IMG/VR virus record: IMGVR_UViG_3300028802_000007 | Span: 1-64,000 of that record | Strand: one strand, 5' to 3' | Length of the DNA stretch: 64,000 bases | Source: a virus | In this document: positions 4,896 through 23,775 of the stretch, in pieces | Position numbering within the stretch: position 1 is the first letter of the stretch | Layout of the letters: the number at the start of each line of letters is the position of its first letter | The notes under the pieces: model-generated | Databases searched by the model: none | The model's input: only the letters and a program-made list of their open reading frames with translations | What the model was told of the DNA's origin: nothing | Position numbers and translations under genes: made by a program

Positions 4896-4902
4896 ATATG
4901 AA

Positions 4903-5504: not shown

Positions 5505-5839
5505 GCCCGGACCCTCACCTTCGCCTTGGACTTCGCGGCGGGCTTCGGGACGGCCCTCACCGGGTTGTAGGGAGCAACGGCTGCGGCCTCCTCAGGCGTG
5601 GTGATGATGTGACCGGCACCGGCATCCCGGTTGGCCTGCGTGTCGGGGACGAGGGAGGTCTCGTAGATCTTGACCTCCTTGATGGGAGCGGCGTCCACGC
5701 TGATGGTTCGACCAGCCGTGGCATCACGAGCCGCCTGAGCGATGAACGCTGAGACGCTGATGCCCTGGTCGAGGCAGTGGTGTCGGAGGGCGACCCAATC
5801 GTCGTCATCCAGATAGAAGCTGTGCTGACGGACGGTCAA
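5501..5839 (-). CDS. ribbon-helix-helix DNA-binding protein
   Basis: TTG 5839; RQHSFYLDDDDWVALRHHCLDQGISVSAFIAQAA, CopG/Arc-like pattern. Confidence 0.65.
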   Translation of the reverse strand: MTVRQHSFYLDDDDWVALRHHCLDQGISVSAFIAQAARDATAGRTISVDAAPIKEVKIYETSLVPDTQANRDAGAGHIITTPEEAAAVAPYNPVRAVPKPAAKSKAKVRVRA

Positions 5840-6033
5840 CGCACCATTCTCCTTTCGAGGTAGGCGAGCACGTCGGTCCGCCTGTACTTGCGCCAGCCCC
5901 GATCTCCCTGCTGGAAGTACGGGAGCTCCGTCGGGGGAAGACGTTTGACGGTGGAGCGGTCCACCCCCAGCAGAGCGGCTGTCTCGCTCGAGGTCAGCCA
6001 CCGGGTGGACTCATGCTGCTGGGGGTGGATCAT
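5836..6033 (-). CDS. excisionase/MerR-like HTH DNA-binding protein
   Basis: WLTSSETAALLGVDRSTVKRL...ELPY...GWRKYRRTDVLAYL. Confidence 0.8.
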   Translation of the reverse strand: MIHPQQHESTRWLTSSETAALLGVDRSTVKRLPPTELPYFQQGDRGWRKYRRTDVLAYLERRMVR

Positions 6034-10445: not shown

Positions 10446-10539
10446 CGTTGACCTCCAAGAACGAACGCCAGGACGGCGATAGCCAGGATCATGGCCGCAC
10501 AGCCTAGCCCGTCGGCCAGACGCTCCTGCCAAGTGTCCT

Positions 10540-10806
10540 TCATCCCAACGCCGCTCGAAGGGCACCGAACCTGTCGCGATGGATACGCAGGCACTCGTCG
10601 CATTCGTCGGTCGGCCAGTTGGGATGCTCATGCGAACCGCGATGGTCGATCGGCTGGAGGAGGGCCTGGGCCGCCGCTCGCAGCTCTCCGTCGAGCAGGT
10701 ACGGGTTCTGCTCGATGGCTCGTGCCGCGACGTACGCGACGGTGCCCTTGTTCTTGCGGGTGAAGGAAACCACCCACTCCACCTGATCAGATCCGTCGAA
10801 GGCCAT
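10540..10806 (-). CDS. hypothetical protein
   Basis: 88-aa ORF, TGATG-coupled; CDEC. Confidence 0.6.
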   Translation of the reverse strand: MAFDGSDQVEWVVSFTRKNKGTVAYVAARAIEQNPYLLDGELRAAAQALLQPIDHRGSHEHPNWPTDECDECLRIHRDRFGALRAALG

Positions 10807-11057
10807 CAGAGTTCACGCACGGCGGCGGCCATCGCGATCCTGGCCTCGTACTCCTCTGTCCCGTGGTCGTACTGGTCCATGCCGCGCAGACCATCTCCAT
10901 AGACCTCGATGGGACCATAGTACCGATCCAGCCAGGTCCTCACGACGCCCACCGCCGCCTCAGCCCGGCGAACCCGCTCCTCGAGCAGCATCCACGCATC
11001 CGGCGGGTGAACCAGCTCATCCCCGCCCTCGAACGCTGTTTTTTCGCGATCAGGCAC
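10806..11057 (-). CDS. hypothetical protein, first gene of leftward early operon
   Basis: GTG with GAGGAGG SD just downstream of the leftward promoter. Confidence 0.65.
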   Translation of the reverse strand: MPDREKTAFEGGDELVHPPDAWMLLEERVRRAEAAVGVVRTWLDRYYGPIEVYGDGLRGMDQYDHGTEEYEARIAMAAAVREL

Positions 11058-11086
11058 TGCACCCTCCTCTACAGCCGTACCGCCGT

Positions 11087-11115
11087 AGCATCGTGTCTGG
11101 GTACTGTCGTGTCAA
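11087..11115 (-). promoter_or_regulatory. leftward sigma70-type promoter
   Basis: TTGACA-17 nt-GATGCT upstream of gene 10806..11057. Confidence 0.6.
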
Positions 11116-11381
11116 GTGGGGATGGTGGTGGTTGGATGGATGGTTTTGGTCGGTCGGATGCGAGAAAAGTGCGCCGCTCGACGCCCAAAGCAGCCCCCCG
11201 GGAAGTCGCCGACCGGGGGGGGGCCGGTCCCCGGGGGCCGCATGCTACGGTTCTCCCAGAGGCTCTAGGATCAACGGAGCCGCCGGTGGAGGGTGTCAGG
11301 TGGGGAGCGGTTCCACACAGGGGGTCCAACGCCACCTTGGTACCATACGGGGGCTCCTGCGCGACCTGGGCCCCTGAGCTA

Positions 11382-11420
11382 ACCGTAGCAAGCGTAGCAG
11401 TGCTACGCAGCATGCTACGC
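11382..11420. repeat. CGTAGCA iteron/palindrome cluster in divergent control region
   Basis: ACCGTAGCAAGCGTAGCA-G-TGCTACGC-AGCA-TGCTACGC. Confidence 0.7.
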
Positions 11421-11617
11421 AAGGGCGAGGTCGGCGGGCAGAGGTCGTCGAGGGCGTCGTCGCCGGATCGCGAGCGTTCCACCAGTCGGAGGGCTAGCAG
11501 TGGTGGGGCACGAGGATGGCGGCGACTCGACCGCCGGTCCCGGGTCGTGCTCTAGGGTGGGCTGTCCCTGCGGCTAGGATCACACCGGGTGACCCACCGA
11601 CAGGACCTTCGCCCAGC

Positions 11618-11647
11618 TTGACACCCCCACCACAGATGGAGGACAAT
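11618..11647 (+). promoter_or_regulatory. rightward sigma70-type promoter
   Basis: TTGACA-18 nt-GACAAT upstream of first rightward gene. Confidence 0.6.
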
Positions 11648-11693
11648 CAGGGCCGACAGGGCGACCCGCCCCCCGCACTCTGGAGGTCAACCA

Positions 11694-11816
11694 GTGACTC
11701 GCAAGGCACGAACCATCGCGGCGAACAAGTCCCGCCCCATCCCCGCCTGTGACGCCTGTGGCCGTCGTGGGGATACCGACCACGTCTGCTCCGACCGACA
11801 GGCCGTCGCCCGATGA
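11694..11816 (+). CDS. small Zn-finger-like early protein
   Basis: GTG after CTGGAGGTCAACCA; CDAC..HVC; below ORF-track cutoff. Confidence 0.55.
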   Translation: MTRKARTIAANKSRPIPACDACGRRGDTDHVCSDRQAVAR

Positions 11817-11989
11817 CGACCACCGAACGGGACATGCTCACCGACGAGCGCCAAGCCCTCCTCGACCGCCTCGTGCGGGTGGACCTCGTGTCCGAAGGTC
11901 TGGGCGTGCTGGAGCGGGCGCTTGAGCGCCGCGCCCTTCGTCAGCGCATCGATGAGATTGACGCCCTCCTGACGGCGACCGTCCGATGA
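11813..11989 (+). CDS. small hypothetical protein
   Basis: 58-aa ORF, ATGA overlaps at both ends. Confidence 0.55.
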   Translation: MTTTERDMLTDERQALLDRLVRVDLVSEGLGVLERALERRALRQRIDEIDALLTATVR

Positions 11990-12435
11990 CCGACATCGAC
12001 CTGTGCGTCTGCGGCCATGAGGGCTGGGAGGGCCACACCCACGACGACAACATGTGCCTGACCCCCGGCTGCTGGTGCGGCGTCGTCAAGGCCCAGCAGG
12101 GTGCCTCCCTCCACCCGGTGGGCGACCGCTGGATGGTCCGCATCGTGACCGAACCGCTGGGCCTCCTCTGGCACGGGATGGAGCGGGACTGGACCCGCAC
12201 CCGCCAGACCTACGAGGAGGGCACCATCGTCGAGGTCTACGACCGCAAGTACGTCGAGGGCTTCAGCCCCATCGGCCAGTTCGTCACCGCCTACGGTGCC
12301 CGGACCCTCCTCTCCCCCCGTGGTGCCCACGCCCTCTCCCTCCATGGCGGCATCCCTGAGTGGACCCTGACCCGCGACGAGGTCACCACCCTGATGGGGC
12401 TCATCGTCCAGTACGGCGACATCCGCCTCGACTGA
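11986..12435 (+). CDS. hypothetical early protein
   Basis: 149 aa, N-terminal Cys/His cluster. Confidence 0.7.
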   Translation: MTDIDLCVCGHEGWEGHTHDDNMCLTPGCWCGVVKAQQGASLHPVGDRWMVRIVTEPLGLLWHGMERDWTRTRQTYEEGTIVEVYDRKYVEGFSPIGQFVTAYGARTLLSPRGAHALSLHGGIPEWTLTRDEVTTLMGLIVQYGDIRLD

Positions 12436-12504
12436 CCCTCACCCCTGACCCCCACCCGGGTCAGGTGCGAGTGCCAGACGGACACTCAGACCAAGGAGGT
12501 CAAC
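12436..12504 (+). promoter_or_regulatory. structured intergenic element, copy 1 of 6
   Basis: CCCTCAC, hairpin CCTGACCC/GGGTCAGG, hairpin GAGTGCC..CACTC, GGAGGTCAAC-ATG. Confidence 0.75.
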
Positions 12505-12879
12505 ATGGACAAGGCACAGGCCAAGGTCGTACAGGTGGCAGTGGGCGAGGCCATCAAGGCCGTCTACGCCCAGCACGGCCTGACCGTCACGTCGTCCCGG
12601 GTCACCTACGACGACTCCACCCTCAACCTGACGGTCAAGGCGACCGTCGCCGATCCGGCGGCGCAAGCCAAGACGTGGGACAACTACGCGCCCGTGTTCG
12701 ACCTCCCTGAGGGCGGCGTCGGCAAGGTCATCACCCTCAACCGCAAGGCCTACCGCATCATCGGGCTGGACCTGAACCGTCGGGCCTACCCGGTGCGGGT
12801 CGAGGACCTCGCCACCGGTCGCCCGGTCCTGTTCAAGGCCCCGGCTGTCGCCCGGGCTCTGGCGTCCCAGACCGCCTGA
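12505..12879 (+). CDS. hypothetical early protein
   Basis: 124 aa with strong RBS. Confidence 0.75.
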   Translation: MDKAQAKVVQVAVGEAIKAVYAQHGLTVTSSRVTYDDSTLNLTVKATVADPAAQAKTWDNYAPVFDLPEGGVGKVITLNRKAYRIIGLDLNRRAYPVRVEDLATGRPVLFKAPAVARALASQTA

Positions 12880-12947
12880 CCCTCACCCCAGCCCCTCACC
12901 CGGGGCTGGTGCGAGCGCCACGTCGGCACTCAAGCAAGGAGGTCAAC
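12880..12947 (+). promoter_or_regulatory. structured intergenic element, copy 2 of 6
   Basis: CCCTCAC, CCAGCCCC/GGGGCTGG, GAGCGCC/GGCACTC, GGAGGTCAAC-ATG. Confidence 0.75.
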
Positions 12948-13301
12948 ATGACCGTCAAGGAACTCATCGAGGCGCTGTCGTCCATGGACGAGGACGCCAC
13001 CATCCGCATCGCGGGCCAGCCCTCCTATCCCATGGAGGCGGAGTTCATCGGGCTGGGGGGCCAGGTTTCCGCCGGATCACCCGACGGCGACGACGAGTGC
13101 GCCGACTGCATGGACCGTCGGTCCGACCACGTCGCCCAGTCCTGCACCCTCAAGGACCTCGACGACGACACGCCCTGCCCGTGCGAGGGGTTCGAGGAGC
13201 CCGCCAAGGACGACGAGTCGGGCGTCTGGCTGGTGGTCGGCGACAACATCGGCTACGGCGTCCCCCGCGAGGTCTACGACACCGCCCGCTACGGCTGGTA
13301 G
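12948..13301 (+). CDS. hypothetical early protein
   Basis: MTVKELIEALSSMDEDATIRIAGQPSYP, with Cys-rich insert. Confidence 0.75.
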   Translation: MTVKELIEALSSMDEDATIRIAGQPSYPMEAEFIGLGGQVSAGSPDGDDECADCMDRRSDHVAQSCTLKDLDDDTPCPCEGFEEPAKDDESGVWLVVGDNIGYGVPREVYDTARYGW

Positions 13302-13308
13302 ACCCTGA

Positions 13309-13379
13309 CCCTCACGGGAGCCCCGGTATCCCCGGGGCTCTGGCGAGCGCCAGATGGGCACTCAGGCAAGGAGGTCAAC
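13309..13379 (+). promoter_or_regulatory. structured intergenic element, copy 3 of 6
   Basis: CCCTCAC, GGAGCCCCGG/CCGGGGCTCT, GAGCGCC/GGCACTC, GGAGGTCAAC-ATG. Confidence 0.75.
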
Positions 13380-13727
13380 ATGGCACTGACGAAACAGGAC
13401 CTAGAGCGGGCCGTCGAGGACGAGCGCCGTCTGGGGTCCGTCGGCTACAACCTCGCGTTCGACCACGGCCAGAGGCTTCAGGCCAAGGGTCGCGCCATCG
13501 TCCTGCGCGAGGCCAACCGTCAGGGCTGGTCGTACGACGACCTCGTCCTGTGGGTGGACTCGAAGTACGGTCGCTGGTTCTGGGACAGCCTGTATGGCTG
13601 TTCTGATCCTGACGGCGCGGCTCAGGCCGTGACCCTCGCATGGGTCGCCCCGGGCGAGGGCGACTACGTCTACCAGCCGACCAGCGTCGAGGCCCACGTC
13701 ACGCGGGTCGAGGCCTACCGGCGATGA
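13380..13727 (+). CDS. hypothetical early protein
   Basis: 115 aa with strong RBS. Confidence 0.7.
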   Translation: MALTKQDLERAVEDERRLGSVGYNLAFDHGQRLQAKGRAIVLREANRQGWSYDDLVLWVDSKYGRWFWDSLYGCSDPDGAAQAVTLAWVAPGEGDYVYQPTSVEAHVTRVEAYRR

Positions 13728-14038
13728 CGTACATGCGGCCATGCCGACGGTGCGGCATCGAGTACGACTTCGACCTTGACCGGACCATGAACGGCCCACA
13801 CGCCCACGGCCCTGAGCCTCGAGGCTGGTCACCGGGCGGCATGACCGTCGCCCGGGAGGGCACCGCCCCCGGGACCCGGGTCCGGCTCATCCACCCCCGC
13901 GAGGGCCTGACCGTCGGTCAGGTGTTCACCGTCGGGTCCACCAGCCCGGAGCATCACTCCCAGAATGGTGGCGGCTACACCATCTACACGACGGACGGCC
14001 AGCACCTCTGGTCCGTCTGGCTGGAGGTCGTCGGGTGA
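13724..14038 (+). CDS. hypothetical protein
   Basis: ATGA-coupled; CRRC. Confidence 0.55.
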   Translation: MTYMRPCRRCGIEYDFDLDRTMNGPHAHGPEPRGWSPGGMTVAREGTAPGTRVRLIHPREGLTVGQVFTVGSTSPEHHSQNGGGYTIYTTDGQHLWSVWLEVVG

Positions 14039-14625
14039 AGGTCCTCGTGGTGTGCGAGTACAGCGGGCGCGTCCGCGACGCCTTCAGGGCGAAGGGGCAC
14101 GAGGCCATCTCGTGCGACCTCCTGCCGACTGAGGTCCCCGGGCCTCACATCGTCGGGGACGCACTGGCTGCGATCCGCGACGTTCAGCCCGACCTCCTCA
14201 TCGCTCACCCGCCCTGCACCTACCTCGCCAACAGTGGCGTCCGGTGGCTGTACGGCGGCAAGGGCACGACCATCGACCCGGTCCGCTGGGGCCAGATGGA
14301 GGAGGGTGCCGCGTTCTTCGCCTCCCTCCTCAACGCTGACGTGCCCATGGTCGCGGTCGAGAACCCGGTCATGCACGGCTACGCCCGGGCCATCATCGGG
14401 CGCGGTCAGGATCAGATTGTCCACCCGTGGCAGCACGGCCATGGCGAGCAGAAGGCGACCGGGCTCTGGCTCCGGGGCCTCCCCCTCCTGCGCCCCTCCG
14501 ACATCGTCGAGGGCCGGGAGCAGCGCGTCTGGCGGATGGGTCCGTCAGCCGACCGATGGAAGGAACGCAGCCGCACCTTCAGCGGCATCGCATCGGCCAT
14601 GGCCGACCAGTGGGGTGACCTGTGA
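14035..14625 (+). CDS. phage DNA cytosine methyltransferase-like protein (short type)
   Basis: KVLVVCEYSGRVRDAF, SCDL, DLLIAHPPC (motif IV), VENP (motif VI), RSRTFSGIASAMADQWG. Confidence 0.8.
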   Translation: MKVLVVCEYSGRVRDAFRAKGHEAISCDLLPTEVPGPHIVGDALAAIRDVQPDLLIAHPPCTYLANSGVRWLYGGKGTTIDPVRWGQMEEGAAFFASLLNADVPMVAVENPVMHGYARAIIGRGQDQIVHPWQHGHGEQKATGLWLRGLPLLRPSDIVEGREQRVWRMGPSADRWKERSRTFSGIASAMADQWGDL

Positions 14626-14876
14626 ACGTGACCTGTACGACATGCCGCAAGGGGCCGCACATCCCGTCGGCACCCGACTACCACCTCTACCGGACGGCGT
14701 CCGTCCGTCCGCCTCGCCCAGCCCTGGCCGTCGCCGGCCCGATCGCGACCGGCGATTGCCCGACATGCGCCCGGGGTGGCTTCGCTCCCAGCCATGACGG
14801 CAGCAGCCGCTGCGAGTCAGGCTCCATCGCATCCGGCGGGACCCGGTCGCACTGCTCCTGCGACACCTGCTTCTGA
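14622..14876 (+). CDS. Cys-rich small protein
   Basis: CTTC, CPTC, HCSCDTCF. Confidence 0.65.
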   Translation: MNVTCTTCRKGPHIPSAPDYHLYRTASVRPPRPALAVAGPIATGDCPTCARGGFAPSHDGSSRCESGSIASGGTRSHCSCDTCF

Positions 14877-14948
14877 CCCTCACCCCTGCCCCTCCATCCG
14901 GGGGCAAGGGCGAGTGCCAGATAGGTACTCAACCATGGAGGTCAACCC
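14877..14948 (+). promoter_or_regulatory. structured intergenic element, copy 4 of 6
   Basis: CCCTCAC, TGCCCC/GGGGCA, GAGTGCC/GGTACTC, TGGAGGTCAACCC-ATG. Confidence 0.75.
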
Positions 14949-15191
14949 ATGACACCGCTCGAACTGGCAACCCGACTGGGCCAGAGCCCAGACCTCGACA
15001 ACCGCATCACGGGCGTCGCCATCATCCTGCGCGGCCTGACCGACGACGACGGCGACCGTCAGGGCTGGCCCATGACTCCCGCCGTTGCGATCCGCGCCGC
15101 GAAGTACATCGGCGTCGAGCCCACCCCGGAACTGGTCGCGGCGGTCCTTGAGTTCGCCCCGTCCCTCCCCGACTTCTACCTCAACCGATGA
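14949..15191 (+). CDS. hypothetical early protein
   Basis: 80 aa with strong RBS. Confidence 0.65.
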   Translation: MTPLELATRLGQSPDLDNRITGVAIILRGLTDDDGDRQGWPMTPAVAIRAAKYIGVEPTPELVAAVLEFAPSLPDFYLNR

Positions 15192-15382
15192 CCGTCCAGC
15201 ATCACGTCACCGCCAACGCCCGGGCGGCGATGGAGAACGACGGCGTCGAGGTTCTGATCCTGACGGCGGAGCAGCGCCGCGACCTCGTCCGCGCCCTGAC
15301 CATCGCCGTTGACACTGAGCTCGAGGCGACCGACCGGTGGGTCGCCCTCATCAACCTCATCCAAACTGGAGCTCCACTTTGA
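15188..15382 (+). CDS. hypothetical protein
   Basis: ATGA-coupled, 64 aa. Confidence 0.55.
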   Translation: MTVQHHVTANARAAMENDGVEVLILTAEQRRDLVRALTIAVDTELEATDRWVALINLIQTGAPL

Positions 15383-15467
15383 GCCTCGCCGACAAGCTGA
15401 GGACCCTCCGCGACGTGACCTTCGTGGTCCTGTGCGTGATCCTGTTCCTCGCCATCGCGAGCCAGCC

Positions 15468-15869
15468 ATGACCGACTTCGAGGACTGCTGGCCGTTCCCC
15501 TGCCGTGACTACCACGCCACCTCAGCTCATCAGGAGGACCCGTGCCTTTGCCGGTGCCATCGGCCAGCGAACGACTACATCGGCCAGGGTGCGGATCAGG
15601 CCACGACGCCTCCACCGGAGGGACATGTACCTGGGCTTGACACGCTGATGGCGAGCCTTCAGACTGACGACATGAGGTCAACCACCGGGCTCCCCCACGA
15701 CTTCGGTCAGGTCTGCGATTGCATCGACTGCGTCGGCTGTGATCACAAGCACGTCGAGCCCGATGACGACGGCCTGTTCCTTCACTTCAACCGGTGCGCC
15801 GACTGCGACCAAGTCGTGGTCCTCACCGCCCCGGACGAAGACGGTCAATCCTTCTGGGAGGTCATGTAG
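15468..15869 (+). CDS. Cys-rich hypothetical protein
   Basis: ATG 15468; several CxC/CxxC pairs. Confidence 0.55.
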   Translation: MTDFEDCWPFPCRDYHATSAHQEDPCLCRCHRPANDYIGQGADQATTPPPEGHVPGLDTLMASLQTDDMRSTTGLPHDFGQVCDCIDCVGCDHKHVEPDDDGLFLHFNRCADCDQVVVLTAPDEDGQSFWEVM

Positions 15870-16208
15870 ATGGGCATCATCATCGAAGGGCACGTCGTGG
15901 TCAGCACCAAGACCCTGACCGGACACAAGGGCCACCACCTGACGGTCGAGGACGACTCGTTCGGGCCTCGCCTGTGGTGCGTCGAGGACGCCGTGGTCGT
16001 CGCGTCGGTCCCTCAGCCCCGGACCGATCTGCCATGCGGCTGCATCGACGTGGCGAGCCACAACGAGGACCTCGCCGTCCAACTCGACCTCCGCAAGAAG
16101 TTCCGCATCCCCAAGTCCACCTGCGTCGGCTGCTATCTGGGCGACGACGGCATCAGCATCCACTCCTGCGCCATCCACCCTGAGAGGTACTGGCCGGAAG
16201 CTTCCTGA
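15870..16208 (+). CDS. hypothetical protein
   Basis: RBS GGAGGTCA; Cys/His rich. Confidence 0.6.
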   Translation: MGIIIEGHVVVSTKTLTGHKGHHLTVEDDSFGPRLWCVEDAVVVASVPQPRTDLPCGCIDVASHNEDLAVQLDLRKKFRIPKSTCVGCYLGDDGISIHSCAIHPERYWPEAS

Positions 16209-16277
16209 CCCTCACCCCAGCCGCCGACCAGCGGCTGGTGCGAGCGCCAGATTGGCACTCATCAACGGAGGTCAGCC
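16209..16277 (+). promoter_or_regulatory. structured intergenic element, copy 5 of 6
   Basis: CCCTCAC, CCAGCCGC/GCGGCTGG, GAGCGCC/GGCACTC, GGAGGTCAGCC-ATG. Confidence 0.75.
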
Positions 16278-16844
16278 ATGACCAAGACCATCGAGTACGA
16301 GGTCCCCGCCTTCAAGGGGTCGCCTCAACTCGCCCACTACGGCGAGTGGGACGGGAACACCCTGCTCCACGCCATCCTCAACGGCGACGGACCGGCGGTC
16401 ACGGAGTTCCTGGCCGGGTTCGTCGCGGATCGCAACACGGAGTTCGACGCGGTCGAGTTGCGGTACGCCATCGTCGCCCGGGCCGTCGAGGCGACGACCG
16501 ACCTCGCCAAGGGCGTCGAGACGACCGGGTTCAAGGCCTTCGCCAATCCCGATCCCAAGGCCAAGTACCGCAAGCCCAAGGTCACCCACGAGGGCGAGGG
16601 CTGCGAGGCCAACTACTGCGACCTCGCCGCCAAGTACCGCCTCCCGGCTCCGCCGGAGGGCTTCGACGGGACCGTCCTCACGCTGGCATGCCAGAAGCAC
16701 GCGGTCGAGGCCATCGACCGTCAGGCCTACTTCGTCGCCCGGGGCGGCAACAGCAGGTACGTCTACCTGACGTCCGACGGACACAGGCAGATCAAGGAGG
16801 CCGCTCGCGACGCGCTCCTCGAAGCCGTCAAGGCCGCCGTCTAG
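16278..16844 (+). CDS. hypothetical early protein
   Basis: 188 aa with strong RBS. Confidence 0.75.
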   Translation: MTKTIEYEVPAFKGSPQLAHYGEWDGNTLLHAILNGDGPAVTEFLAGFVADRNTEFDAVELRYAIVARAVEATTDLAKGVETTGFKAFANPDPKAKYRKPKVTHEGEGCEANYCDLAAKYRLPAPPEGFDGTVLTLACQKHAVEAIDRQAYFVARGGNSRYVYLTSDGHRQIKEAARDALLEAVKAAV

Positions 16845-16915
16845 CCCTCACGCCAGCCCCTGACGGGGGCTGGAGCGAGTGCCACACGGGTGCTCAAGCA
16901 AACAGGAGGTCAGCC
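16845..16915 (+). promoter_or_regulatory. structured intergenic element, copy 6 of 6
   Basis: CCCTCAC, CCAGCCCC/GGGGCTGG, GAGTGCC/GGTGCTC, GGAGGTCAGCC-ATG. Confidence 0.75.
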
Positions 16916-17251
16916 ATGACCCAGAGCGTAGTCAACGTCGATGACCCCAGCGCGGCTGACGGCATCGCCGACATCCGCCCGGATCAGGTTCGGAGCGCCT
17001 ACGACGGACGCGCCAACCGGTGCGCGTGCGGCTGCTCAGGCAACTACTACGGCCCCGGCTACCCGGAGTTCAGCATCGCCACGACCGACCGGATGGTCGG
17101 CCTCATCCTCAAGCGCATGCAGCGCCGCGCCGCCAAGGCCAAGGCCGGCGAGGTCGAGCCACTGTGGACCTTCACCTACTCCGACGGGTCCCGCATGTTC
17201 GCCTACCAGACCGCCTCGCGTCTGATCCGCATCGAGACGGTGGCCCTGTGA
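16916..17251 (+). CDS. hypothetical early protein
   Basis: ATG 16916; SAYDGRANRCACGCSGNYY. Confidence 0.7.
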   Translation: MTQSVVNVDDPSAADGIADIRPDQVRSAYDGRANRCACGCSGNYYGPGYPEFSIATTDRMVGLILKRMQRRAAKAKAGEVEPLWTFTYSDGSRMFAYQTASRLIRIETVAL

Positions 17252-17574
17252 CCGCCGAAGACGAGGCGTGGGAGCGCGAGTGGAACGAGTCCATCGCCCG
17301 GATCAGGGCTGACTTCCCGTCGGGCTGGAGCATCACCGGGTACAAGGGCCACAACACCCACGACGGCGTGGCCTGGGTCGCGACCCTCCGCCTCGACGGC
17401 AAGTCGGTCGCCTTCCTTGAGGACTCAGGTGTCGGTGGCGGAGTCTGGTCCCAGTTCCGCGATCGCGCCGACCGCGAGCTGTTCGACAAGGCCGTCGCCG
17501 ACGTCCTGCCCGACGAGAAGACCGAACCGGAGCAGATGGTCTTCGAGGCCCTCCTCCAGCGGTCAGGCAAGTGA
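17248..17574 (+). CDS. hypothetical protein
   Basis: GTGA-coupled; WVATLRLDGKSVAFLEDSGVGG. Confidence 0.65.
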   Translation: MTAEDEAWEREWNESIARIRADFPSGWSITGYKGHNTHDGVAWVATLRLDGKSVAFLEDSGVGGGVWSQFRDRADRELFDKAVADVLPDEKTEPEQMVFEALLQRSGK

Positions 17575-17743
17575 TGCGGCAGCACCACGCTGGATATCCC
17601 GTCCCGTACTTCGAGCAGGTGCGGGGACGGGACGGCCTGTGGTGGTGGGCCAAGTGCCCGGTCTGCGGGCGCGTGATCCTGAACAAGGACGGCTTCGGAC
17701 CGGCCAACCACTGGCGTCGGATGCAGCGCCGGGAGGAGGCCCA

Positions 17744-18436
17744 GTGAAGGTCCTCGACCTGTACTCCGGTCTGGGCGGCTGGTCGCAGCCAGCCCTCGAC
17801 GAGGGCCACGACGTGGTCCGGGTGGAGTACGACCCTCGCCTCGCGAAGGAGGTCCCGTCGTCGGTTCAGGCCGACATCACGACCCTCCGACCAGCCGACC
17901 TCCTCGACATGATGGGCGGCAAGCCCGACCTGATCCTCGCCTCGCCTCCCTGTGAGGCGTGGTCGGTCATGGTCATCAGCCGCAACTGGTTCCCCGACTA
18001 CACGCCCAAGTCGGATCGGGCTGCGGCTGCGGTCGAGATGGTCAAGCACACCCTGTACCTGATCCACGCCATCGACCCGACGTTCTGGGTCATGGAGAAC
18101 CCTCGCGGCATGATGCGGAAGCACCCGGTCGTCGCCGGACTGGAGCGCCGGTCGGTCACCTACTGCCACTACGGTGAGCAGCGGATGAAGCCGACCGACC
18201 TGTGGTCCGACCGCTGGGCTCCCAGCCTGGTCCTCGCACCGACGTGCAAGAACGGCGACCCCTGTCACGTTCGAGCGCCTCGCGGGTCGATGACCGGCAC
18301 CCAAGGCATGAAGGGCGACCGCAACGGCTACTGGACGAAGTCCCTCATCCCCTACCCGCTGGCACGCGACGTCACCGACGCCGCAGCGGCGGATCTCGAG
18401 GCGGGCCAAGTCGGCTCCAACCTCACGCTCTGGTAA
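17744..18436 (+). CDS. DNA cytosine-C5 methyltransferase
   Basis: GTG 17744 (GGAGGAGG SD); motif I VLDLYSGLGG, IV ASPPC, VI MENP. Confidence 0.85.
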   Translation: MKVLDLYSGLGGWSQPALDEGHDVVRVEYDPRLAKEVPSSVQADITTLRPADLLDMMGGKPDLILASPPCEAWSVMVISRNWFPDYTPKSDRAAAAVEMVKHTLYLIHAIDPTFWVMENPRGMMRKHPVVAGLERRSVTYCHYGEQRMKPTDLWSDRWAPSLVLAPTCKNGDPCHVRAPRGSMTGTQGMKGDRNGYWTKSLIPYPLARDVTDAAAADLEAGQVGSNLTLW

Positions 18437-18447
18437 GGAGGTCAGCC

Positions 18448-18687
18448 ATGCAGTTACACGACTCAGCCAAGGCGGAGAACATCCGCGACATCGCCCGGGA
18501 GCTCCTCGCGAGAGCCGACGAGCTCGACGGCACCATGCCGTGCGAGTGCGGGCACCTCCGCCAGAACCACGACCCGGCGGGTTGGAACGCGGGCTGGTGC
18601 AGCGGAGCCCAGACGACTCGCCGGCCCAGCGGCAGGATCATCGCCGCCGACGGCGACTGCAAGTGCGAGGAGTTCAAGGCATGGTGA
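18448..18687 (+). CDS. Cys-rich hypothetical protein
   Basis: RBS AAGGAGGTCAGCC-ATG; CECGH...CKCEEF. Confidence 0.65.
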   Translation: MQLHDSAKAENIRDIARELLARADELDGTMPCECGHLRQNHDPAGWNAGWCSGAQTTRRPSGRIIAADGDCKCEEFKAW

Positions 18688-18929
18688 CCAAGCTGGTCGG
18701 GAACTGGCGGCGACGCCGGAACACCAAGACCGACACCCACCTCTACTCAGGCAGCGGGCATCACCCGTTCGACCAGCGCCCGATCTGCGGCAAGGCCATC
18801 CGCTACATGACCACCGAACCCATCAAGCCGTGGACCGGCTCACCCCGATCGCGATCCGGCGCGAACGCCGCCCTCCCCTGCACGGAGTGCCTCATCAACG
18901 CCATCGGTCAACGGGACTACTCGAAGTGA
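18681..18929 (+). CDS. hypothetical protein
   Basis: ATG 18681 with GAGGAG SD; ICG..CTEC. Confidence 0.55.
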   Translation: MVTKLVGNWRRRRNTKTDTHLYSGSGHHPFDQRPICGKAIRYMTTEPIKPWTGSPRSRSGANAALPCTECLINAIGQRDYSK

Positions 18930-19064
18930 GCGACGAGGAGGACCTGTGCGCCCGGTGCGGCCACAGCTCTGAGGATCACGGGGGCGGACCCGGCGAGGGC
19001 GAGTACCCGGACCTCCCATGCGACTGCGGCTGTCCCCGCTGGACGGAGGAGGCCGACACCTGAC

Positions 19065-19093
19065 TTGCAATCCACGGGCCCAGGCCCGATACT
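19065..19093 (+). promoter_or_regulatory. putative sigma70-type promoter
   Basis: TTGCAA-17 nt-GATACT in intergenic gap. Confidence 0.5.
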
Positions 19094-19113
19094 CAACACC
19101 GGAGGTCAACCGA

Positions 19114-19389
19114 ATGGACGAGAAGCCCGACCCGACACCACCCAAGCGGTTCTGGAGGGTCACGTTCTGGACACCCGACGGGACAGAGCGCCGTCGCTAC
19201 ATCCGCTGCCCGTACCTCGAGCCCTCGAGTGACTCGCTCGTCAACGTGACGGCGCGTCTGGGCGAACTGGTGTGGACCGGCGTCATCACCAGCTACCGGC
19301 TCAGCCCGGTGCCATCGGCCCGCGTGGCCGCCGTCCGCAATCGCTCAGTGCGATGGAGCGAGGTCGAAGCCTCCCTCCTCGCCGCCTAG
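19114..19389 (+). CDS. hypothetical protein
   Basis: RBS GGAGGTCAACCGA-ATG. Confidence 0.65.
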   Translation: MDEKPDPTPPKRFWRVTFWTPDGTERRRYIRCPYLEPSSDSLVNVTARLGELVWTGVITSYRLSPVPSARVAAVRNRSVRWSEVEASLLAA

Positions 19390-19400
19390 AGGACCATGAC

Positions 19401-19541
19401 ATGCTCATCATCCTGTTCATCACCGGCATCCTCATGTGGGTCATCGGCTCACGTCTGGAGAAGCGCCAGATCGAGGAGCGCGACCGCGAGCTCGACGACT
19501 GGCTCCACCGCCGCAACCGACTGCCGAAGAAGCCTCGATGA
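19401..19541 (+). CDS. small membrane protein
   Basis: N-terminal hydrophobic helix, charged tail. Confidence 0.5.
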   Translation: MLIILFITGILMWVIGSRLEKRQIEERDRELDDWLHRRNRLPKKPR

Positions 19542-19936
19542 AGAGGTCCTACGCGGCCATGGCCGACGAACTGGGACTGGAGTTCTGTGGTGGCGTCCGC
19601 AAGACCGGCCACTACTGCACCCTCGATCACAGCCGTTGGGGCGCGTCCGAACCGGGGCGCGTCCACATGGCCGACGTGCGAGTCACGAAGGCGGGCCTGG
19701 CTCGCTTCCTTGGCCTCGCCGCGATCGCACTTGATCCCAGCCTCAACGACGAGGTGCCGTGGCGGAGGGTCTACCTCCGCACCGTGCGCTCGCGTTATCT
19801 GGCCCAGCAACTGCACGTCCGCGTGCCCGGGCGAGAGCACTACGACTTCGACCGTTCGTTCGTCCTCGCGAGCGTCGCATCCCTCCCGAACAGCGAGCCT
19901 CTTCGGAAGCAAGCGTTCGACTGGGCGCGGCGCTGA
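19538..19936 (+). CDS. hypothetical protein
   Basis: ATGA-coupled, 132 aa. Confidence 0.6.
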   Translation: MKRSYAAMADELGLEFCGGVRKTGHYCTLDHSRWGASEPGRVHMADVRVTKAGLARFLGLAAIALDPSLNDEVPWRRVYLRTVRSRYLAQQLHVRVPGREHYDFDRSFVLASVASLPNSEPLRKQAFDWARR

Positions 19937-19952
19937 TGGGGAGGTGTAACTG

Positions 19953-21356
19953 GTGCGGACCAACGACATGCTCCTGCCCCAGACCGGCCAGCGGGTGCGG
20001 GTGTTCGTGCCACGAGTGTTGCAGCCCGTGCGACTGCGACAACTGGATGTTCGAGGACGCTCGACCTACGTCTGGTGGAACCGACTTGATCTCTGCGTCA
20101 TCCCCTTCAAGAGGAAGGCACACGACGAGTGGCCTATCCAGCACGCCATCGACATCGTCCACGGGGGCGGCTTCGATGTCGCCGATCTCGACGACATCAC
20201 CCTTGGCACCCCATCCGTGGGGCGGCTGAAACAGCAACCCTGGCCCGGGTTCCTCCGCGATGGAGTCCGTGTACCGGTCGAGGAGGAGGACCTATGGCAA
20301 ACCATGACGGGGGCGCAGTACTTCCTGTACCGCGTGTTTGGCGTTGCACCAGATGCTGGGAGGTGGGAACCCGACCAAGTTTCATCATCCTCGACGGGAC
20401 CTACGGGTCCCAGCCCTGCCGCAGCATTCGCTGTGGTGGAGAGAAGCGGATCTTCCACGAAGAGGAGTTCAACGATGACATCAGCACTGAACACACACGA
20501 GTACGTCGCCCCGCACAACAACCCTGAGGTGGCGGCGATCATGGCGGAGAAGGGCGTGGGCCGGAAGCGTGCCTACACCATCCTCCGACAGACCAAGGCC
20601 AAGGCCTTCACCGCTGAGGTGCCCCAGACACAACGGACACAGGTCCTCGCCTCACTGGTGAACCACGCTGGATCGAGCAAGAACGCCAAGGAGCTCCTCG
20701 ACCAGCTTCACGACGACGGCATGAAGATCGACATGCACGACACGGTCAAGACGCTGTGGTCACTTCAGAAGAACCGCTTCGTCTCGTTCCGTGAACGCGG
20801 CAACCCGCCCGGTCTGTACGCCATCAAGGTGACCGACCAGGGACAGGCTGCCTACGCCGACATGCGTGAGCGGCTGGCGGATCAGGAGGTGGACACCTTC
20901 CTCGTGGCTCAGTCCTACCGTCGCCCTGCCGTCGTCGAGGCGGCCATCGCGGCGGAGGCCGAAGCGTCGGTCGCCCTCGACCACGATCCGAAGATGGAGA
21001 CGCAGTCGAGCCTGGATTGGCCGGTCAAGACCAAGGCGGAACGGACCGCCGAAGCCCTAGCACTCAACGGCGAGGTCGTCGTCGAGGACATCCTCCCCGG
21101 CACGCCGGAGTGGGCCGCCTCAGAGGTCGCCCTCGAAGAGCAGCGCCGGTCGGAGTACGGCTTCGACGTGAAGGAGTTCCCGCTCATCTGCGCGATCCGC
21201 GACCGCGCCCGGAAGGAGGCCGTCCTGACGCAGGCGGCGCGGCTCCTCGAGGAAGCCGGCGAGGACGACATCGCCCTCACCGTCATGGGTCGGACCGAGT
21301 ACACCGACCTCGAGCTCGAAGTGAAGACGATGCTCCACAGCATCGGGGAGGTCTAG
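19953..21356 (+). CDS. hypothetical protein with winged-helix-like region; probable internal start at 20475
   Basis: 467-aa ORF; GAGGAG SD before ATG 20475; VKTLWSLQKNRFV...IKVTDQG wHTH-like pattern. Confidence 0.55.
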   Translation: MRTNDMLLPQTGQRVRVFVPRVLQPVRLRQLDVRGRSTYVWWNRLDLCVIPFKRKAHDEWPIQHAIDIVHGGGFDVADLDDITLGTPSVGRLKQQPWPGFLRDGVRVPVEEEDLWQTMTGAQYFLYRVFGVAPDAGRWEPDQVSSSSTGPTGPSPAAAFAVVERSGSSTKRSSTMTSALNTHEYVAPHNNPEVAAIMAEKGVGRKRAYTILRQTKAKAFTAEVPQTQRTQVLASLVNHAGSSKNAKELLDQLHDDGMKIDMHDTVKTLWSLQKNRFVSFRERGNPPGLYAIKVTDQGQAAYADMRERLADQEVDTFLVAQSYRRPAVVEAAIAAEAEASVALDHDPKMETQSSLDWPVKTKAERTAEALALNGEVVVEDILPGTPEWAASEVALEEQRRSEYGFDVKEFPLICAIRDRARKEAVLTQAARLLEEAGEDDIALTVMGRTEYTDLELEVKTMLHSIGEV

Positions 21357-22235: not shown

Positions 22236-22961
22236 GTGGAGCATGACGGAGTGAGACCCGTCGTCTACTCCGCATCCTCGGTCAACGCCTACCTGGACTG
22301 CCACCTCCAGTGGTGGTTCACCTACGTCTTGGGCGAGGAAGGCGTCCAGAGCGAGCCGATGCGCGTCGGGATCGAGCTTCACGACGCCGTCGAGCGGCTC
22401 CTCCGAAACCGCGACGACTTCCAAGCGTACTGGCAGGCCGAGACGAGGGATGCCCATCTTGGCGCTCTCGTCAGTGTCTTCGTCGCCGATGTCCTGCCGA
22501 CCTATCGCAACCCGGTCTGGGTCGAGAAGGAGTTCCAGATCGAGGTCAACGGCATCCCGTACAGCGGCATCATCGACTCGCTCGACGAGCAGGACGTGCC
22601 GTGGGGCTTCGAGGACATCCTGCGGGATCTGAAGTCCACCGGGAGCCGGCCCCGGCCCGGGAAGTACACCTTCAACATGCGCGGCTACTGGATGGGGGCC
22701 CGTGACCTCGGTCGCGAACCGGCGGGCATCCAGCTCGACTACATCGTCCGAACCAAGACGCCCTACTACTGGCCGGAGGTCCAGCCTATCCCTGACGACG
22801 ACGACCTCGCCGCCTGGGCCCACACCCTCGAGCTCGTGGCGAACGGCGTCGAGCGAGCCGACTACCGGGCGACCGGGCTGGGGTCCCGCGCCTGTACGAC
22901 CTGTCCCTACGCCGCGATGTGCGGTCCATACCAGAGGTTCAAGGAGGTCACCGATGCCTGA
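22236..22961 (+). CDS. PD-(D/E)XK exonuclease (RecB/Cas4-like recombination nuclease)
   Basis: YSASSVNAYLDC, GIELHDAVE, VEKEF, GIID, RDLKS, C-terminal CTTCPYAAMC. Confidence 0.85.
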   Translation: MEHDGVRPVVYSASSVNAYLDCHLQWWFTYVLGEEGVQSEPMRVGIELHDAVERLLRNRDDFQAYWQAETRDAHLGALVSVFVADVLPTYRNPVWVEKEFQIEVNGIPYSGIIDSLDEQDVPWGFEDILRDLKSTGSRPRPGKYTFNMRGYWMGARDLGREPAGIQLDYIVRTKTPYYWPEVQPIPDDDDLAAWAHTLELVANGVERADYRATGLGSRACTTCPYAAMCGPYQRFKEVTDA

Positions 22962-23775
22962 GGCCAAGACGCAGTCCCTCGCCGCCAAGCTGGCGGAGAT
23001 CATGGGCCAGATGAAGCACGTCAAGAAGGAGGGCTTCAACAAGGCCCAGAACTACAAGTTCGTCCGCGAGACGGACGTCGCCGAGATGGCGTCGGAGCTC
23101 CTCGCGGCCAAGGGCATCTGGGTCCACCAGACGCTCATCGCGGAGGACATGGAGCCCCTGTACACGACCAACTCGGGGGCCCAGATGTGGCTGACCAAGG
23201 TCCAGATCGCGTTCAAGTTCATCGACGGCGCGACCCTCGAGGAGACCCTCCCGCAGACCTTCAGCGGGCACGGTGCCGACACGGGCGACAAGGGCATCTA
23301 CAAGGCCATGACCGGCGCTGAGAAGTACTTCCTGATGAAGTCCTTCCTGATCTCGACCGGTGACGACCCTGAGGCCGACGAGAAGGTGGACAAGGCCGCC
23401 GACGCTGCCGGTGCCGCAACCGCTCCCCGGGTGGTGCGCGGATCGCAGTCCGGCGTCCAGCGCGGAGGCCGCTCCGACGCTGCCACAGCCGCTCAGGTCA
23501 ACGAGGTGGCCCGCTTGGTCAAGGAGTTGAACCTGACTGCCGAGACGGCCCTGCCCATCATCCAGGCCGTTCTGGGCGAGATCCCGGCGGATAAGCAGAA
23601 CATGCGCGACTTCCTCGGATCGAAGAAGTCGGCTGAGGTCGGCAAGCTCATCGAGGCGCTCATGGAGTTCAAGCCCGTCGAGAAGGCGGTCGCGGGCGGC
23701 GACCAAGCGGATCTCGAGGCTCGCGAAGGTCTGGACCTCCGCGACGAGCCCCCGGCGGCCATGGCGGTCGTCTAG
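22954..23775 (+). CDS. ERF-family single-strand annealing recombinase
   Basis: ATG 22954; GFNKAQNYKF, GADTGDKGIYKAMTGAEKYFLMKSFLISTGDDPE; follows the exonuclease. Confidence 0.85.
   Translation: MPEAKTQSLAAKLAEIMGQMKHVKKEGFNKAQNYKFVRETDVAEMASELLAAKGIWVHQTLIAEDMEPLYTTNSGAQMWLTKVQIAFKFIDGATLEETLPQTFSGHGADTGDKGIYKAMTGAEKYFLMKSFLISTGDDPEADEKVDKAADAAGAATAPRVVRGSQSGVQRGGRSDAATAAQVNEVARLVKELNLTAETALPIIQAVLGEIPADKQNMRDFLGSKKSAEVGKLIEALMEFKPVEKAVAGGDQADLEAREGLDLRDEPPAAMAVV

What the first reader, a model, noticed from the sequence alone, without database searches (positions are those of the whole stretch)
12433..16915. Six covarying ~70-nt structured elements between early genes that may couple translation by pairing the upstream stop region with the downstream RBS
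Seen: copies at 12436, 12880, 13309, 14877, 16209 and 16845. Each starts at or near the upstream stop and reads (TGA)CCCTCAC, hairpin 1, GC, hairpin 2 (GAGYGCC/GGYRCTC), short A/C linker, GGAGGTCA, start codon. Hairpin 1 changes sequence but keeps pairing (CCTGACCC/GGGTCAGG, CCAGCCCC/GGGGCTGG, GGAGCCCCGG/CCGGGGCTCT, CCAGCCGC/GCGGCTGG), which indicates selection on RNA or ssDNA structure. In five of six copies 5' UGACC(C)UC can pair with GAGGUCA, closing a multibranch junction over the SD; this is the same strand the 4780-4895 RNA would supply in trans. There are no U tracts, so they are not terminators. Inference: ribosome-opened translational switches, RNase processing sites, or attC-like recombination sites that shuffle early-gene cassettes.
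Basis: partly seen in the sequence, partly recalled or inferred. Interest (0 to 1): 0.8.

Follow-up and report, generated by a model that had tools for sequence, protein, structure and literature searches.

The report
Stop-anchored hairpin repeats between phage genes
An uncultured phage separates its small early genes with a repeated, folded spacer of about 70 bases that begins on one gene's stop codon and ends at the next gene's ribosome site; it is real, uncatalogued and marks where related phages have reshuffled genes, but its function is untested.

Summary
The six copies are real and sit exactly where reported. The same record holds eight more, because it is two related ~75-kb phage genomes joined in tandem. 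Other members occur in 27-28 metagenome contigs and in two phage lineages that share almost no proteins. No Rfam family matches.

The anatomy differs from the first description. The conserved flanks CUGACCCUCAC (which holds the stop codon) and GCGAGYGCCAG are imperfect inverted repeats. With the variable, strongly covarying stem they form one irregular hairpin of about 21 bp. "Hairpin 2" reuses the 3' flank, so the two folds exclude each other.

The proposed closing helix over the ribosome site forms in about half of this record's copies and in 11 of 47 family copies. It hides the site no better than a shuffled control.

All three gene-order breaks between the two genomes fall inside the array. 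No recombinase or RNase III gene is present.

My best reading (0.4) is an mRNA punctuation element that also serves as the homology patch for cassette shuffling. No RNA data exist. This scan noted similar stop-anchored hairpin repeats earlier in other uncultured phages (AI notes, unchecked).

The parts
12432..12504 (+). Element 1, between the genes 11986-12435 and 12505-12879
   Evidence: Sub-features: 5' flank with stop codon 12432-12442; variable hairpin 12444-12465; 3' flank 12467-12477; 3' arm of hairpin 2 12481-12487; SD 12495-12499; start codon 12505. Model score 66.2 bits.
12876..12947 (+). Element 2, between 12505-12879 and 12948-13301
   Evidence: Sub-features: 5' flank 12876-12886; hairpin 12888-12909; 3' flank 12911-12921; hairpin-2 arm 12925-12931; SD 12938-12942; start 12948. 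Model score 66.3 bits.
13305..13379 (+). Element 3, between 12948-13301 and 13380-13727
   Evidence: Sub-features: 5' flank 13305-13315; hairpin 13317-13341; 3' flank 13343-13353; hairpin-2 arm 13357-13363; SD 13370-13374; start 13380. Model score 68.1 bits. Its hairpin is orthologous to the copy before the same gene in the second genome.
14873..14948 (+). Element 4, between 14622-14876 and 14949-15191
   Evidence: Sub-features: 5' flank 14873-14883; hairpin 14885-14908 (one C.A mismatch); 3' flank 14910-14920; hairpin-2 arm 14924-14930; SD 14937-14941; start 14949. Model score 67.1 bits. A contig of run X3 carries about 142 extra letters exactly at 14873-14876 (table 8).
16205..16277 (+). Element 5, between 15870-16208 and 16278-16844
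   Evidence: Sub-features: 5' flank 16205-16215; hairpin 16217-16238; 3' flank 16240-16250; hairpin-2 arm 16254-16260; SD 16267-16271; start 16278. Model score 69.3 bits. It is orthologous to the copy at 91514 of the record.
16841..16915 (+). Element 6, between 16278-16844 and 16916-17251 (TAG instead of TGA)
   Evidence: Sub-features: 5' flank 16841-16851; hairpin 16853-16873; 3' flank 16875-16885; hairpin-2 arm 16889-16895; SD 16905-16909; start 16916. Model score 59.6 bits. Contigs of runs X3 and X4 join 16896 to 17249, so they lack the gene 16916-17251 (table 5).
11618..11647 (+). Sigma-70-like promoter (TTGACA, 18 nt, GACAAT) at the head of the rightward operon that holds the array
   Evidence: It is the only promoter-like site found in 10500-20000, and none lies inside an element. 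This is a consensus match only, not evidence of function.
22251..23775 (+). Exonuclease (22251-22961) and Erf-type single-strand annealing protein (22954-23775), a candidate engine for exchange at short repeats
   Evidence: phrog_69 at 2.5e-12 and phrog_155 at 5.4e-26. Pfam ERF is over its cut-off in both genomes of the record. The link to the elements is inferred, not shown.

Best explanation
**What it is.** The element is a strand-specific punctuation unit of the polycistronic early mRNA. It is also the patch of shared sequence at which early-gene cassettes are exchanged.

**Anatomy (shown).**
- The last base of the upstream codon, the stop codon and CCCUCAC form the 5' strand.
- GCGAGYGCCAG forms the 3' strand of an imperfect 11-pair lower stem with fixed mismatches.
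- On top sits a variable 8-10-bp stem that keeps pairing while its sequence changes. Together they make an irregular helix of about 20-22 bp.
- The 3' strand can instead pair with a downstream GGCACUC (hairpin 2), so the unit has two mutually exclusive folds.
- A strong SD and the next start codon follow. The stop-to-start spacer is 65-77 nt in most copies.

**Mechanism (inferred).**
1. A ribosome that terminates on the UGA covers the 5' strand, so the long helix cannot form and the 3' strand folds into hairpin 2.
2. Without a ribosome the long helix forms. It is the length of a substrate for a host double-strand RNase (RNase III type), or it acts as a barrier to 3' exonucleases.
3. Cutting or stalling there would leave the upstream message ending in the variable hairpin. 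The downstream message would begin with hairpin 2 and an exposed ribosome site.
4. Each cassette then becomes a self-contained expression unit, whatever its neighbours are.

**At the DNA level (shown as a pattern; the enzyme is inferred).** The repeated units are where gene order and content change between relatives. The likely route is homologous exchange between copies, perhaps by the phage's own Exo/Erf pair.
For: **Fold**
- The upper stem has compensatory changes in 7 of 8 pairs. 0 of 500 shuffles reach the observed covariation score, and the slid controls are far lower.
- Among 56 distinct copies the lower stem shows double compensatory changes at three pairs: U-A once at pair 1, A-U once at pair 2, and U-A once and G-C twice at the innermost pair. 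It also shows two + strand wobbles.
- The isolated core folds as the long hairpin in all 14 copies of the record (z -2.8 to -4.1 on the mRNA strand for the six window copies).
- The spacing between the flanks varies from 23 to 35 nt. That fits a folded form better than two sites read on straight duplex DNA.

**Link to translation**
- In 55 of 57 copies a stop codon sits at the same place: TGA in 54 and TAG in 1.
- In 54 of those 55 it closes a frame that is open for at least 48 codons.
- The base before the stop is C in nearly every copy listed and pairs with the G that ends the 3' flank.
- Every copy has the orientation of its flanking genes. The reverse complement scores only about 20 bits against 60-78 for the forward strand.

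**Operon setting**
- One sigma-70-like promoter lies upstream and none inside the elements. No U-tract terminators occur at the elements.

**Shuffling**
- Among 63 reciprocal-best gene pairs of the two genomes, all 3 order breaks lie inside the array (map). The rest of the 56 kb is collinear.
- Contigs of two other runs, from two studies, lack the gene 16916-17251. The joint starts at the last base of hairpin 2.
- Exo and Erf are encoded in the record.
Against: - No RNA evidence of any kind is available.
- The complementary strand folds 5-12 kcal/mol better than the mRNA strand in all 14 copies, because the two fixed A.C mismatches become G.U.
- In the upper stem, C.A cells outnumber G.U cells 9 to 3 on the mRNA strand. 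Selection on the mRNA alone predicts the opposite.
- Hairpin 2 is missing in 16 of 54 distinct copies. In one lineage it is replaced by a direct repeat of the same motif, which looks like a sequence that is read rather than paired.
- The flanks keep their letters across phage lineages with no shared proteins. RNase III is not known to need that (my own knowledge). Most sequences were fetched with a pattern that fixed both flanks, so this invariance is partly built in.
- No RNase III gene is present in the phages, so a host enzyme must be assumed.
- A review reports that structure just after a stop codon lowers translational coupling (PMC12548453, passages read). The element may therefore insulate genes rather than couple them.
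Confidence: 0.4

Rival explanations
1. One reading: a translational switch. The 5' flank (UGACC-CUC) pairs with the SD and its 3' neighbours (GAGGUCA) and closes a three-way junction that hides the ribosome site. A ribosome finishing the upstream gene opens it. This is translational coupling by RNA unfolding.
For: - The helix is in the minimum-energy fold of 7 of the record's 14 copies, 4 of them among the 6 in the window.
- It has summed pair probability >=4 in 7 of the 14.
- The stop codon lies inside the 5' strand, as this model needs.
- GGAGGTCA is enriched. By my own knowledge of the 16S 3' end, it is not the canonical extended SD.
- Coupling over spacings of 52-62 nt through unfolding is on record (PMC12548453, passages).
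Against: - Only 11 of 47 family copies have the helix.
- The SD is paired with mean probability 0.54, against 0.56 with a shuffled 5' flank.
- Four copies in the record keep the full conserved core but lack UCA after the SD.
- The conserved core exists in lineages with a different start-associated motif.
- 20 of the 30 + strand GGAGGTCA sites in the record are not next to an element.
Confidence: 0.17
2. A DNA-level regulatory site. The unit carries three copies of an 11-mer (roughly YTGRCNCTCRY): the 5' flank, the inverted 3' flank and the arm of hairpin 2. A phage or host DNA-binding protein reads them to control early transcription. The variable hairpin acts as a spacer or attenuator, much as ESAS sites in Cluster K mycobacteriophages are now read as promoter plus inverted repeat.
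For: - The letters of the flanks are conserved more than their pairing.
- Hairpin 2 does not covary at its variable pair.
- One lineage has a direct instead of an inverted repeat of the motif.
- The only protein shared by the two lineages is a 65-aa excisionase-like HTH, phrog_66.
- ESAS of phage Adephagia is described as a SigA-like promoter with a 15-bp inverted repeat (PMC11373665, passages).
Against: - No sigma-70-like promoter lies inside the elements.
- The spacing between the outer sites varies from 23 to 35 bp. That changes helical phase on straight DNA.
- Strict co-orientation with the genes, and a stop codon fixed in place and in frame in 54 of 57 copies, are not needed for an operator.
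- The upper and lower stems both covary.
Confidence: 0.15
3. An attC-like recombination site. The folded bottom strand is the substrate of a recombinase supplied in trans, or of the phage annealing protein. Cassettes are cut and pasted at a fixed point in the conserved core.
For: - The layout resembles attC: conserved imperfect inverted ends around a variable palindrome, placed directly after each ORF, with all copies co-oriented.
- The bottom strand is the better-folding one in 14 of 14 copies.
- Cassette order is permuted between relatives.
- Elements are shared by unrelated phages.
Against: - No tyrosine or serine recombinase is present in the record or in the two relatives searched whole, while the controls matched in 14 and 12 of 14 genomes.
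- Genes also move without an element. The methyltransferase-like gene and the gene at 15188 have an element in front in one genome but not in the other.
- Breakpoints fall on either side of the variable hairpin rather than at one point.
- The indel seen in other runs starts after hairpin 2, not in the core.
- ERF is absent from the second lineage.
Confidence: 0.1
4. Plain transcription terminators or attenuators, the stem-loop half of a PeSL-like unit, that lower read-through between early genes.
For: - GC-rich stems of 8-10 bp directly follow the genes.
- The stem-loops of PeSLs were shown to terminate transcription (PMC2839356, abstract and passages).
Against: - No U tract follows the stems. 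The same phage has a canonical hairpin-plus-T-run terminator elsewhere (sequence read; scan).
- No promoter follows to restart transcription.
- This reading does not explain the conserved flanks or the fixed stop codon.
Confidence: 0.08

Closest known systems
PeSLs (promoter-early stem-loops) of T4-type phages: Arbiol et al. 2010, PMC2839356 (abstract and passages read); Comeau et al. 2014, PMC4122927 (abstract read)
   Same: - Both are repeated composite intergenic motifs of about 70 bp.
[quoted passage not shown]
- Both sit between small orphan early genes in a plastic region.
- In both, differences between close relatives map to exchanges between copies.
   Different: - PeSLs are built around a strong sigma-70 promoter, and their stem-loop is a tested terminator. 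Here no promoter is found inside the unit and no U tract follows.
- Here the conserved part is a pair of imperfect inverted flanks that engulf the stop codon.
- Mini-circles were not looked for here.
RNase III processing sites between the early genes of coliphage T7 (R0.3, R0.5, R1, R1.1, R1.3) and of Bacillus phage SP82. Recalled from my own knowledge; no paper was read for this.
   Same: - Both are repeated, related, irregular hairpins of about two helical turns with internal mismatches.
- Both lie between the genes of a polycistronic early transcript.
- In the known cases, cleavage leaves a protective hairpin on the upstream piece.
   Different: - Cleavage is not shown here.
- The primary sequence of the flanks is conserved more strictly.
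- The stop codon is always inside the helix.
- There is a competing second hairpin.
- The host is an unknown high-GC bacterium.
SAS/ESAS of Cluster K mycobacteriophages: Pope et al. 2011, PMC3203893 (passages); Adephagia paper, PMC11373665 (passages); survey of 188 genomes, PMC12699233 (passages)
   Same: - Both have a conserved start-associated motif wider than the SD, at many early genes and all in one orientation.
- About half of those sites are preceded by imperfect inverted repeats around a variable spacer, with the left repeat closer to consensus.
- The function is still called unclear in 2024-2025.
   Different: - ESAS repeats are 17 bp around a spacer of 4-14 bp and contain a SigA-like promoter.
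- Here the repeats are 11 nt around a self-complementary, covarying spacer of 23-35 nt. There is no promoter, and the left repeat holds the stop codon.
- The sequences are unrelated.
Integron attC sites. Features recalled from my own knowledge.
   Same: - Both have conserved imperfect inverted ends around a variable palindrome.
- Both lie right after each cassette ORF, with all copies co-oriented.
- In both the bottom strand folds better.
   Different: - No integrase is present.
- The core sequences are unrelated.
- Breakpoints are not at one fixed nucleotide.
- A ribosome-binding site is part of the unit.
Translational coupling by RNA unfolding (f1 genes VII-IX; E. coli rpmI-rplT), as reviewed in PMC12548453 (passages read)
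   Same: A structure whose 5' strand lies at the end of the upstream ORF can be opened by the terminating ribosome. Spacings of 50-60 nt are known to work.
   Different: - Here the SD is not reliably inside the structure.
- The element is a repeated, portable module rather than a feature specific to one gene pair.

Membership tests
Any Rfam 15 family | Match to a curated covariance model | tested here: not met
   0 matches at gathering score over the whole window. 0 matches at E<=1 over 12400-17000.
PeSL (T4-type phages) | Sigma-70-like early promoter (-35 and -10) inside the motif | tested here: not met
   The consensus scan of 10500-20000 finds one promoter-like site, at 11618-11647, and none inside an element. 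Other promoter types are not covered by the scan.
PeSL (T4-type phages) | Stem-loop between upstream stop and downstream start, among orphan early genes | tested here: met
   The flanking proteins have no Pfam hit in 10 of 10 and only one functional PHROG hit.
PeSL (T4-type phages) | Differences between close relatives explained by exchange between copies | tested here: met
   3 of 3 gene-order breaks among 63 gene pairs lie in the array. There is an indel at the 3' edge of element 6 in contigs of two runs. Circular products were not testable.
Intrinsic terminator | GC-rich hairpin followed by a run of U | tested here: not met
   No terminator-like site is found at any element on the + strand. 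The stems are followed by the conserved 3' flank.
SAS/ESAS of Cluster K mycobacteriophages | 13-bp SAS consensus and 17-bp imperfect inverted repeats with a 4-14-bp spacer that contains a SigA-like promoter | tested here: not met
   The motifs and spacing are different (against the passages), and there is no promoter. Only the general layout is alike.
Integron attC / gene cassette | IntI-type tyrosine recombinase in the element's genome | tested here: not met
   PF00589 gives 0 matches in the record and in two relatives, while the controls matched in 14 of 14 genomes. PF00239 also gives 0. A host enzyme acting in trans cannot be excluded.
Integron attC / gene cassette | Strand-selective folded substrate (the bottom strand) | tested here: inconclusive
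   The bottom strand is more stable in 14 of 14 copies. The rare lower-stem wobble variants favour the top strand.
RNase III processing site (T7 type) | Irregular helix of about 20 bp between cistrons of one transcript | tested here: met
   The predicted helix has 11 lower positions, 1 mismatch and 8-10 upper pairs. A single upstream promoter is predicted. This is prediction only.
RNase III processing site (T7 type) | Cleavage by RNase III at a defined bond | not testable with these tools
   No usable RNA data. No phage-encoded RNase III is found.
Translational coupling by RNA unfolding | The downstream ribosome site is sequestered by pairing with the end of the upstream cistron | tested here: inconclusive
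   Met in 7 of the record's 14 copies and in 11 of 47 family copies. Occlusion of the SD is no greater than with a shuffled 5' flank, 0.54 against 0.56.

The most novel reading that the evidence does not exclude
The elements define an integrase-less, hairpin-delimited cassette system for phage early genes.
- On DNA, the very stable bottom-strand hairpin, or simply the 60-75-bp shared patch, would let the phage's annealing protein or a host enzyme swap, gain and lose single genes between co-infecting phages. These could include phages with no other homology.
- On the mRNA, the same unit would give every incoming gene a ready-made stop, a fold that hands over or insulates the ribosome, and a strong ribosome site. 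Any cassette would then be expressed wherever it lands.
Probability: 0.12. Interest if true: 0.85.

Novelty: new variant of a known kind. Interest (0 to 1): 0.6.

Why it matters
Small early genes are the least understood and fastest-changing part of phage genomes, and they include many host-takeover and anti-defence genes.

This family is shared by unrelated phages, fixed to the stop codon and coincident with every order change between two relatives. If such a portable unit both punctuates the early message and marks the points of exchange, it would explain how these genes are shuffled without losing expression.

It would also give a simple sequence handle for finding cassette arrays in metagenomes, and a compact natural part for building multi-gene operons in high-GC bacteria.

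The unexplained better folding of the non-coding strand is a concrete, testable oddity.

Tried and rejected
**Searches that led nowhere**
- Megablast of 12000-17500 against cultured phages gave no match.
- blastn of one element against the same collection gave only chance hits inside genes, with E >= 0.2.
- The nearest cultured terminase is 29% identical, so no cultured relative could be inspected.
- My first collection pattern was too loose: more than 118 single chance hits.
- The search for related loci with the 188-aa gene between elements 5 and 6 found no relative.
- The 3'-flank-plus-hairpin-2 pattern found nothing in viral contigs.
- The genome-contig scan gave 24 hits. None has a hairpin in register (at most 3 pairs), so all are chance.
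- No RNA holder was listed among the public runs, so transcript ends could not be examined.
- The search of our earlier findings by sequence gave nothing.

**Ideas considered and dropped**
- Stop-codon read-through, selenocysteine insertion or ribosome hopping that fuses neighbouring genes. The start lies in all three phases relative to the stop (18, 12 and 24 of 54).
- Promoters for sigma-70. Sigma-54-like or N4-type hairpin promoters were dropped by inspection only: spacing and stem length do not fit what I recall of them.
- A phage RNA polymerase. None was seen among the 37 window proteins scanned, but not every ORF was scanned.
- nut or put antitermination sites. Fourteen copies in a record of two genomes are too many for what I recall of these systems.
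- A cognate phage protein. The record and the 46,985-base relative share only a 65-aa HTH protein. Most contigs are too short to test co-occurrence.

**Literature**
I found no description of this element. Supplementary files were not opened. The older subscription literature on T7 and SP82 is not in the library and is cited from memory.

Full report

The six copies are at the stated places on the + strand.
- The hairpin-2 pattern occurs 5 times against 0.01 expected.
- The two-flank pattern occurs 14 times forward, never in reverse and never in the backwards control in the whole record.
- A covariance model built later scores these 14 at 59.6-78 bits. It finds no further forward copy in the record's 130,935 bases.

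**What the record is**

A self-comparison shows that 407-56368 is collinear with 75349-130935 at 70-86% identity. The record therefore holds two related phage genomes of about 75 kb in tandem, the second cut off by the contig end. The eight extra copies (86899-92156) are the same early region in the second genome. That gives a built-in comparison.

- Terminase and portal genes lie on the minus strand at the left.
- Exonuclease, Erf, primase/polymerase and methyltransferase genes lie on the + strand to the right of the array.
- One sigma-70-like promoter (11618-11647) heads the rightward operon. No promoter-like or U-tract terminator-like site lies in the elements.
- Ten of ten proteins around the elements have no Pfam hit. 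One is a methyltransferase-like protein.

**A wider family**

A pattern fixing both flanks found:
- three copies in a complete 46,985-base viral contig and one in an 11.5-kb contig;
- 77 metagenome stretches, of which 28 (one doubtful) carry a hairpin in the correct register;
- 24 stretches in bacterial and archaeal genome contigs, none with a hairpin, so all chance.

The 46,985-base phage and two metagenome contigs form a second lineage. It shares no protein with the record except a 65-aa excisionase-like HTH. There the elements again separate ORFs of 60-90 aa beside a primase gene.

**Anatomy**

In a 47-sequence alignment the variable stem has compensatory changes in 7 of 8 pairs and is 94-99% paired. 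No shuffle reaches the observed covariation, and slid controls are far lower.

The new point is that the conserved flanks are themselves imperfect inverted repeats. CUGACCCUCAC pairs with GCGAGYGCCAG in 8 of 11 positions. The mismatches are fixed: A.C, C.Y and A.C, plus one mismatch next to the variable stem.
- Most sequences were fetched with both flanks fixed, so their invariance is partly by construction.
- The secondary copies that the model found in the same contigs are the informative ones. They show double compensatory changes at three lower-stem pairs, two wobbles and a few breaks. That alignment is fitted to the model.
- The isolated core folds as this long hairpin in all 14 copies.
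- Hairpin 2 is present (at least 6 of 7 pairs) in 38 of 54 distinct copies. Its variable pair behaves as if the two sides were independent. In the second lineage the arm is replaced by a direct repeat of the motif. One copy has a clean double compensatory change in hairpin 2.

**The stop codon**

- In 55 of 57 copies a stop codon (54 TGA, 1 TAG) sits at the same position of the 5' flank.
- In 54 of those 55 it closes a frame that is open for at least 48 codons.
- For the 14 copies of the record, and for the secondary copies, this was not imposed by the search.
- In one variant the TGA was lost together with a compensating change in the 3' flank, and a new TGA lies just upstream.
- The spacer from stop to start is 65-77 nt in 42 of 54 copies. 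All three reading phases occur, which rules out fusion by read-through or hopping.

**The closing helix**

It appears in the minimum-energy fold of 7 of the record's 14 copies (4 of the 6 in the window). Its summed probability is >=4 in 11 of 47 family copies, mainly those with GGAGGUCA. The SD is paired no more often than with a shuffled 5' flank, 0.54 against 0.56. It may matter in this phage, but it is not what the family conserves.

**Shuffling**

Between the two genomes the cassettes are permuted.
- Genome A: a0 | a1 | a2 | a3-a6 | a7-a11 | a12 | a13...
- Genome B: a0 | a5,b2 | a3 | a8,b5 | b6,b7 | a1 | a7,b10,a10,a11 | a12 | a14...

Among 63 reciprocal-best pairs over 56 kb, all three order breaks lie in the array. 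Orthologous elements keep their hairpin when both neighbours, or in one case the downstream neighbour, are kept. The hairpin differs in the other cases, so breakpoints lie on both sides of it.

Contigs of two other runs, from two studies, join 16896 to 17249. They therefore lack one gene, and the joint starts at the last base of hairpin 2. Another contig has about 142 extra letters exactly at the CTGA of element 4 (laid at 88% likeness; the sides of the joint are 255 and 93 letters).

No tyrosine or serine recombinase and no RNase III gene is present. ERF is present in the record only.

**An oddity**

The non-coding strand folds 5-12 kcal/mol better in every copy, because the fixed A.C mismatches become G.U. 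In the variable stem, C.A cells outnumber G.U cells 9 to 3.

This points either to a role for the bottom strand or to mismatches that the mRNA needs. A perfect complement of the 5' flank would create an SD-like GAGGG and a GUG just upstream of the real site; that is my inference. I leave it unexplained.

**Reading**

Four features favour a folded nucleic acid acting with translation on the mRNA: strict co-orientation, the fixed stop codon, the variable spacing between the flanks, and covariation in both stems. The helix length and the intercistronic position resemble phage RNase III sites (recalled). The role in gene exchange resembles PeSLs (PMC2839356, PMC4122927). The start-associated motif plus inverted repeats resembles SAS/ESAS (PMC3203893, PMC11373665, PMC12699233).

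It fails a defining feature of PeSL, ESAS, attC and intrinsic terminators, so I file it under none of them. Function remains untested, and my confidence in the punctuation reading is 0.4.

**Earlier notes of this scan**

They describe the second array of this record, and similar stop-anchored hairpin repeats in other uncultured phages, with the same candidate readings. They are unchecked AI notes and I do not count them as support.

Noticed in passing
window 1-64000 and the rest of the record (407-56368 against 75349-130935): The 130,935-base virus record is two related phage genomes of about 75 kb, 70-86% identical, joined head to tail. The second is cut off by the contig end. This could be a true tandem or an assembly join of two strains. 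The completeness figure of 100 for the record should be read with that in mind.
   Followed up: partly
window, 19 sites, e.g. 4854, 11682, 15857, 18437, 19101, 22943, 28412: GGAGGTCA occurs 19 times against 3.9 expected. It lies before many start codons that have no element, including the first gene after the promoter at 11618. It behaves like a start-associated sequence wider than the SD. Earlier notes of the scan link it to a small RNA at 4780-4911 with a complementary loop. I did not test that.
   Followed up: partly
window 37720-43953 and 60537-64000 (the ORF runs on to 67904), minus strand: Two giant ORFs of 2077 and 2455 aa are built largely of 42-nt (14-aa) tandem units. There are dozens of copies at 60-80% identity.
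   Followed up: no
window 5836-6033, minus strand: A 65-aa excisionase-like HTH protein (phrog_66, E 3.6e-6) is the only protein shared with the otherwise unrelated 46,985-base phage that carries the same element. It is also found on contig L149.
   Followed up: partly
window 14873-14876: A contig of run X3 matches up to 14876 and resumes at 14873 after about 142 letters of its own. A related strain therefore has an extra unit inserted exactly at the CTGA of element 4. The letters could not be read (table 8).
   Followed up: no
window 31941-33515, + strand: A 524-aa protein matches phrog_850 'RNA-binding protein' (E 5.7e-57), preceded by a 550-nt non-coding gap. Earlier notes of the scan call it Ro60 with Y-RNA-like units. 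Not examined here.
   Followed up: no
L144, L185 and L239 (second lineage): These phages use another conserved motif before their start codons, an SD followed by ACAGCA. They also follow the 3' flank with a direct repeat of GAGCGCC instead of an inverted arm.
   Followed up: partly
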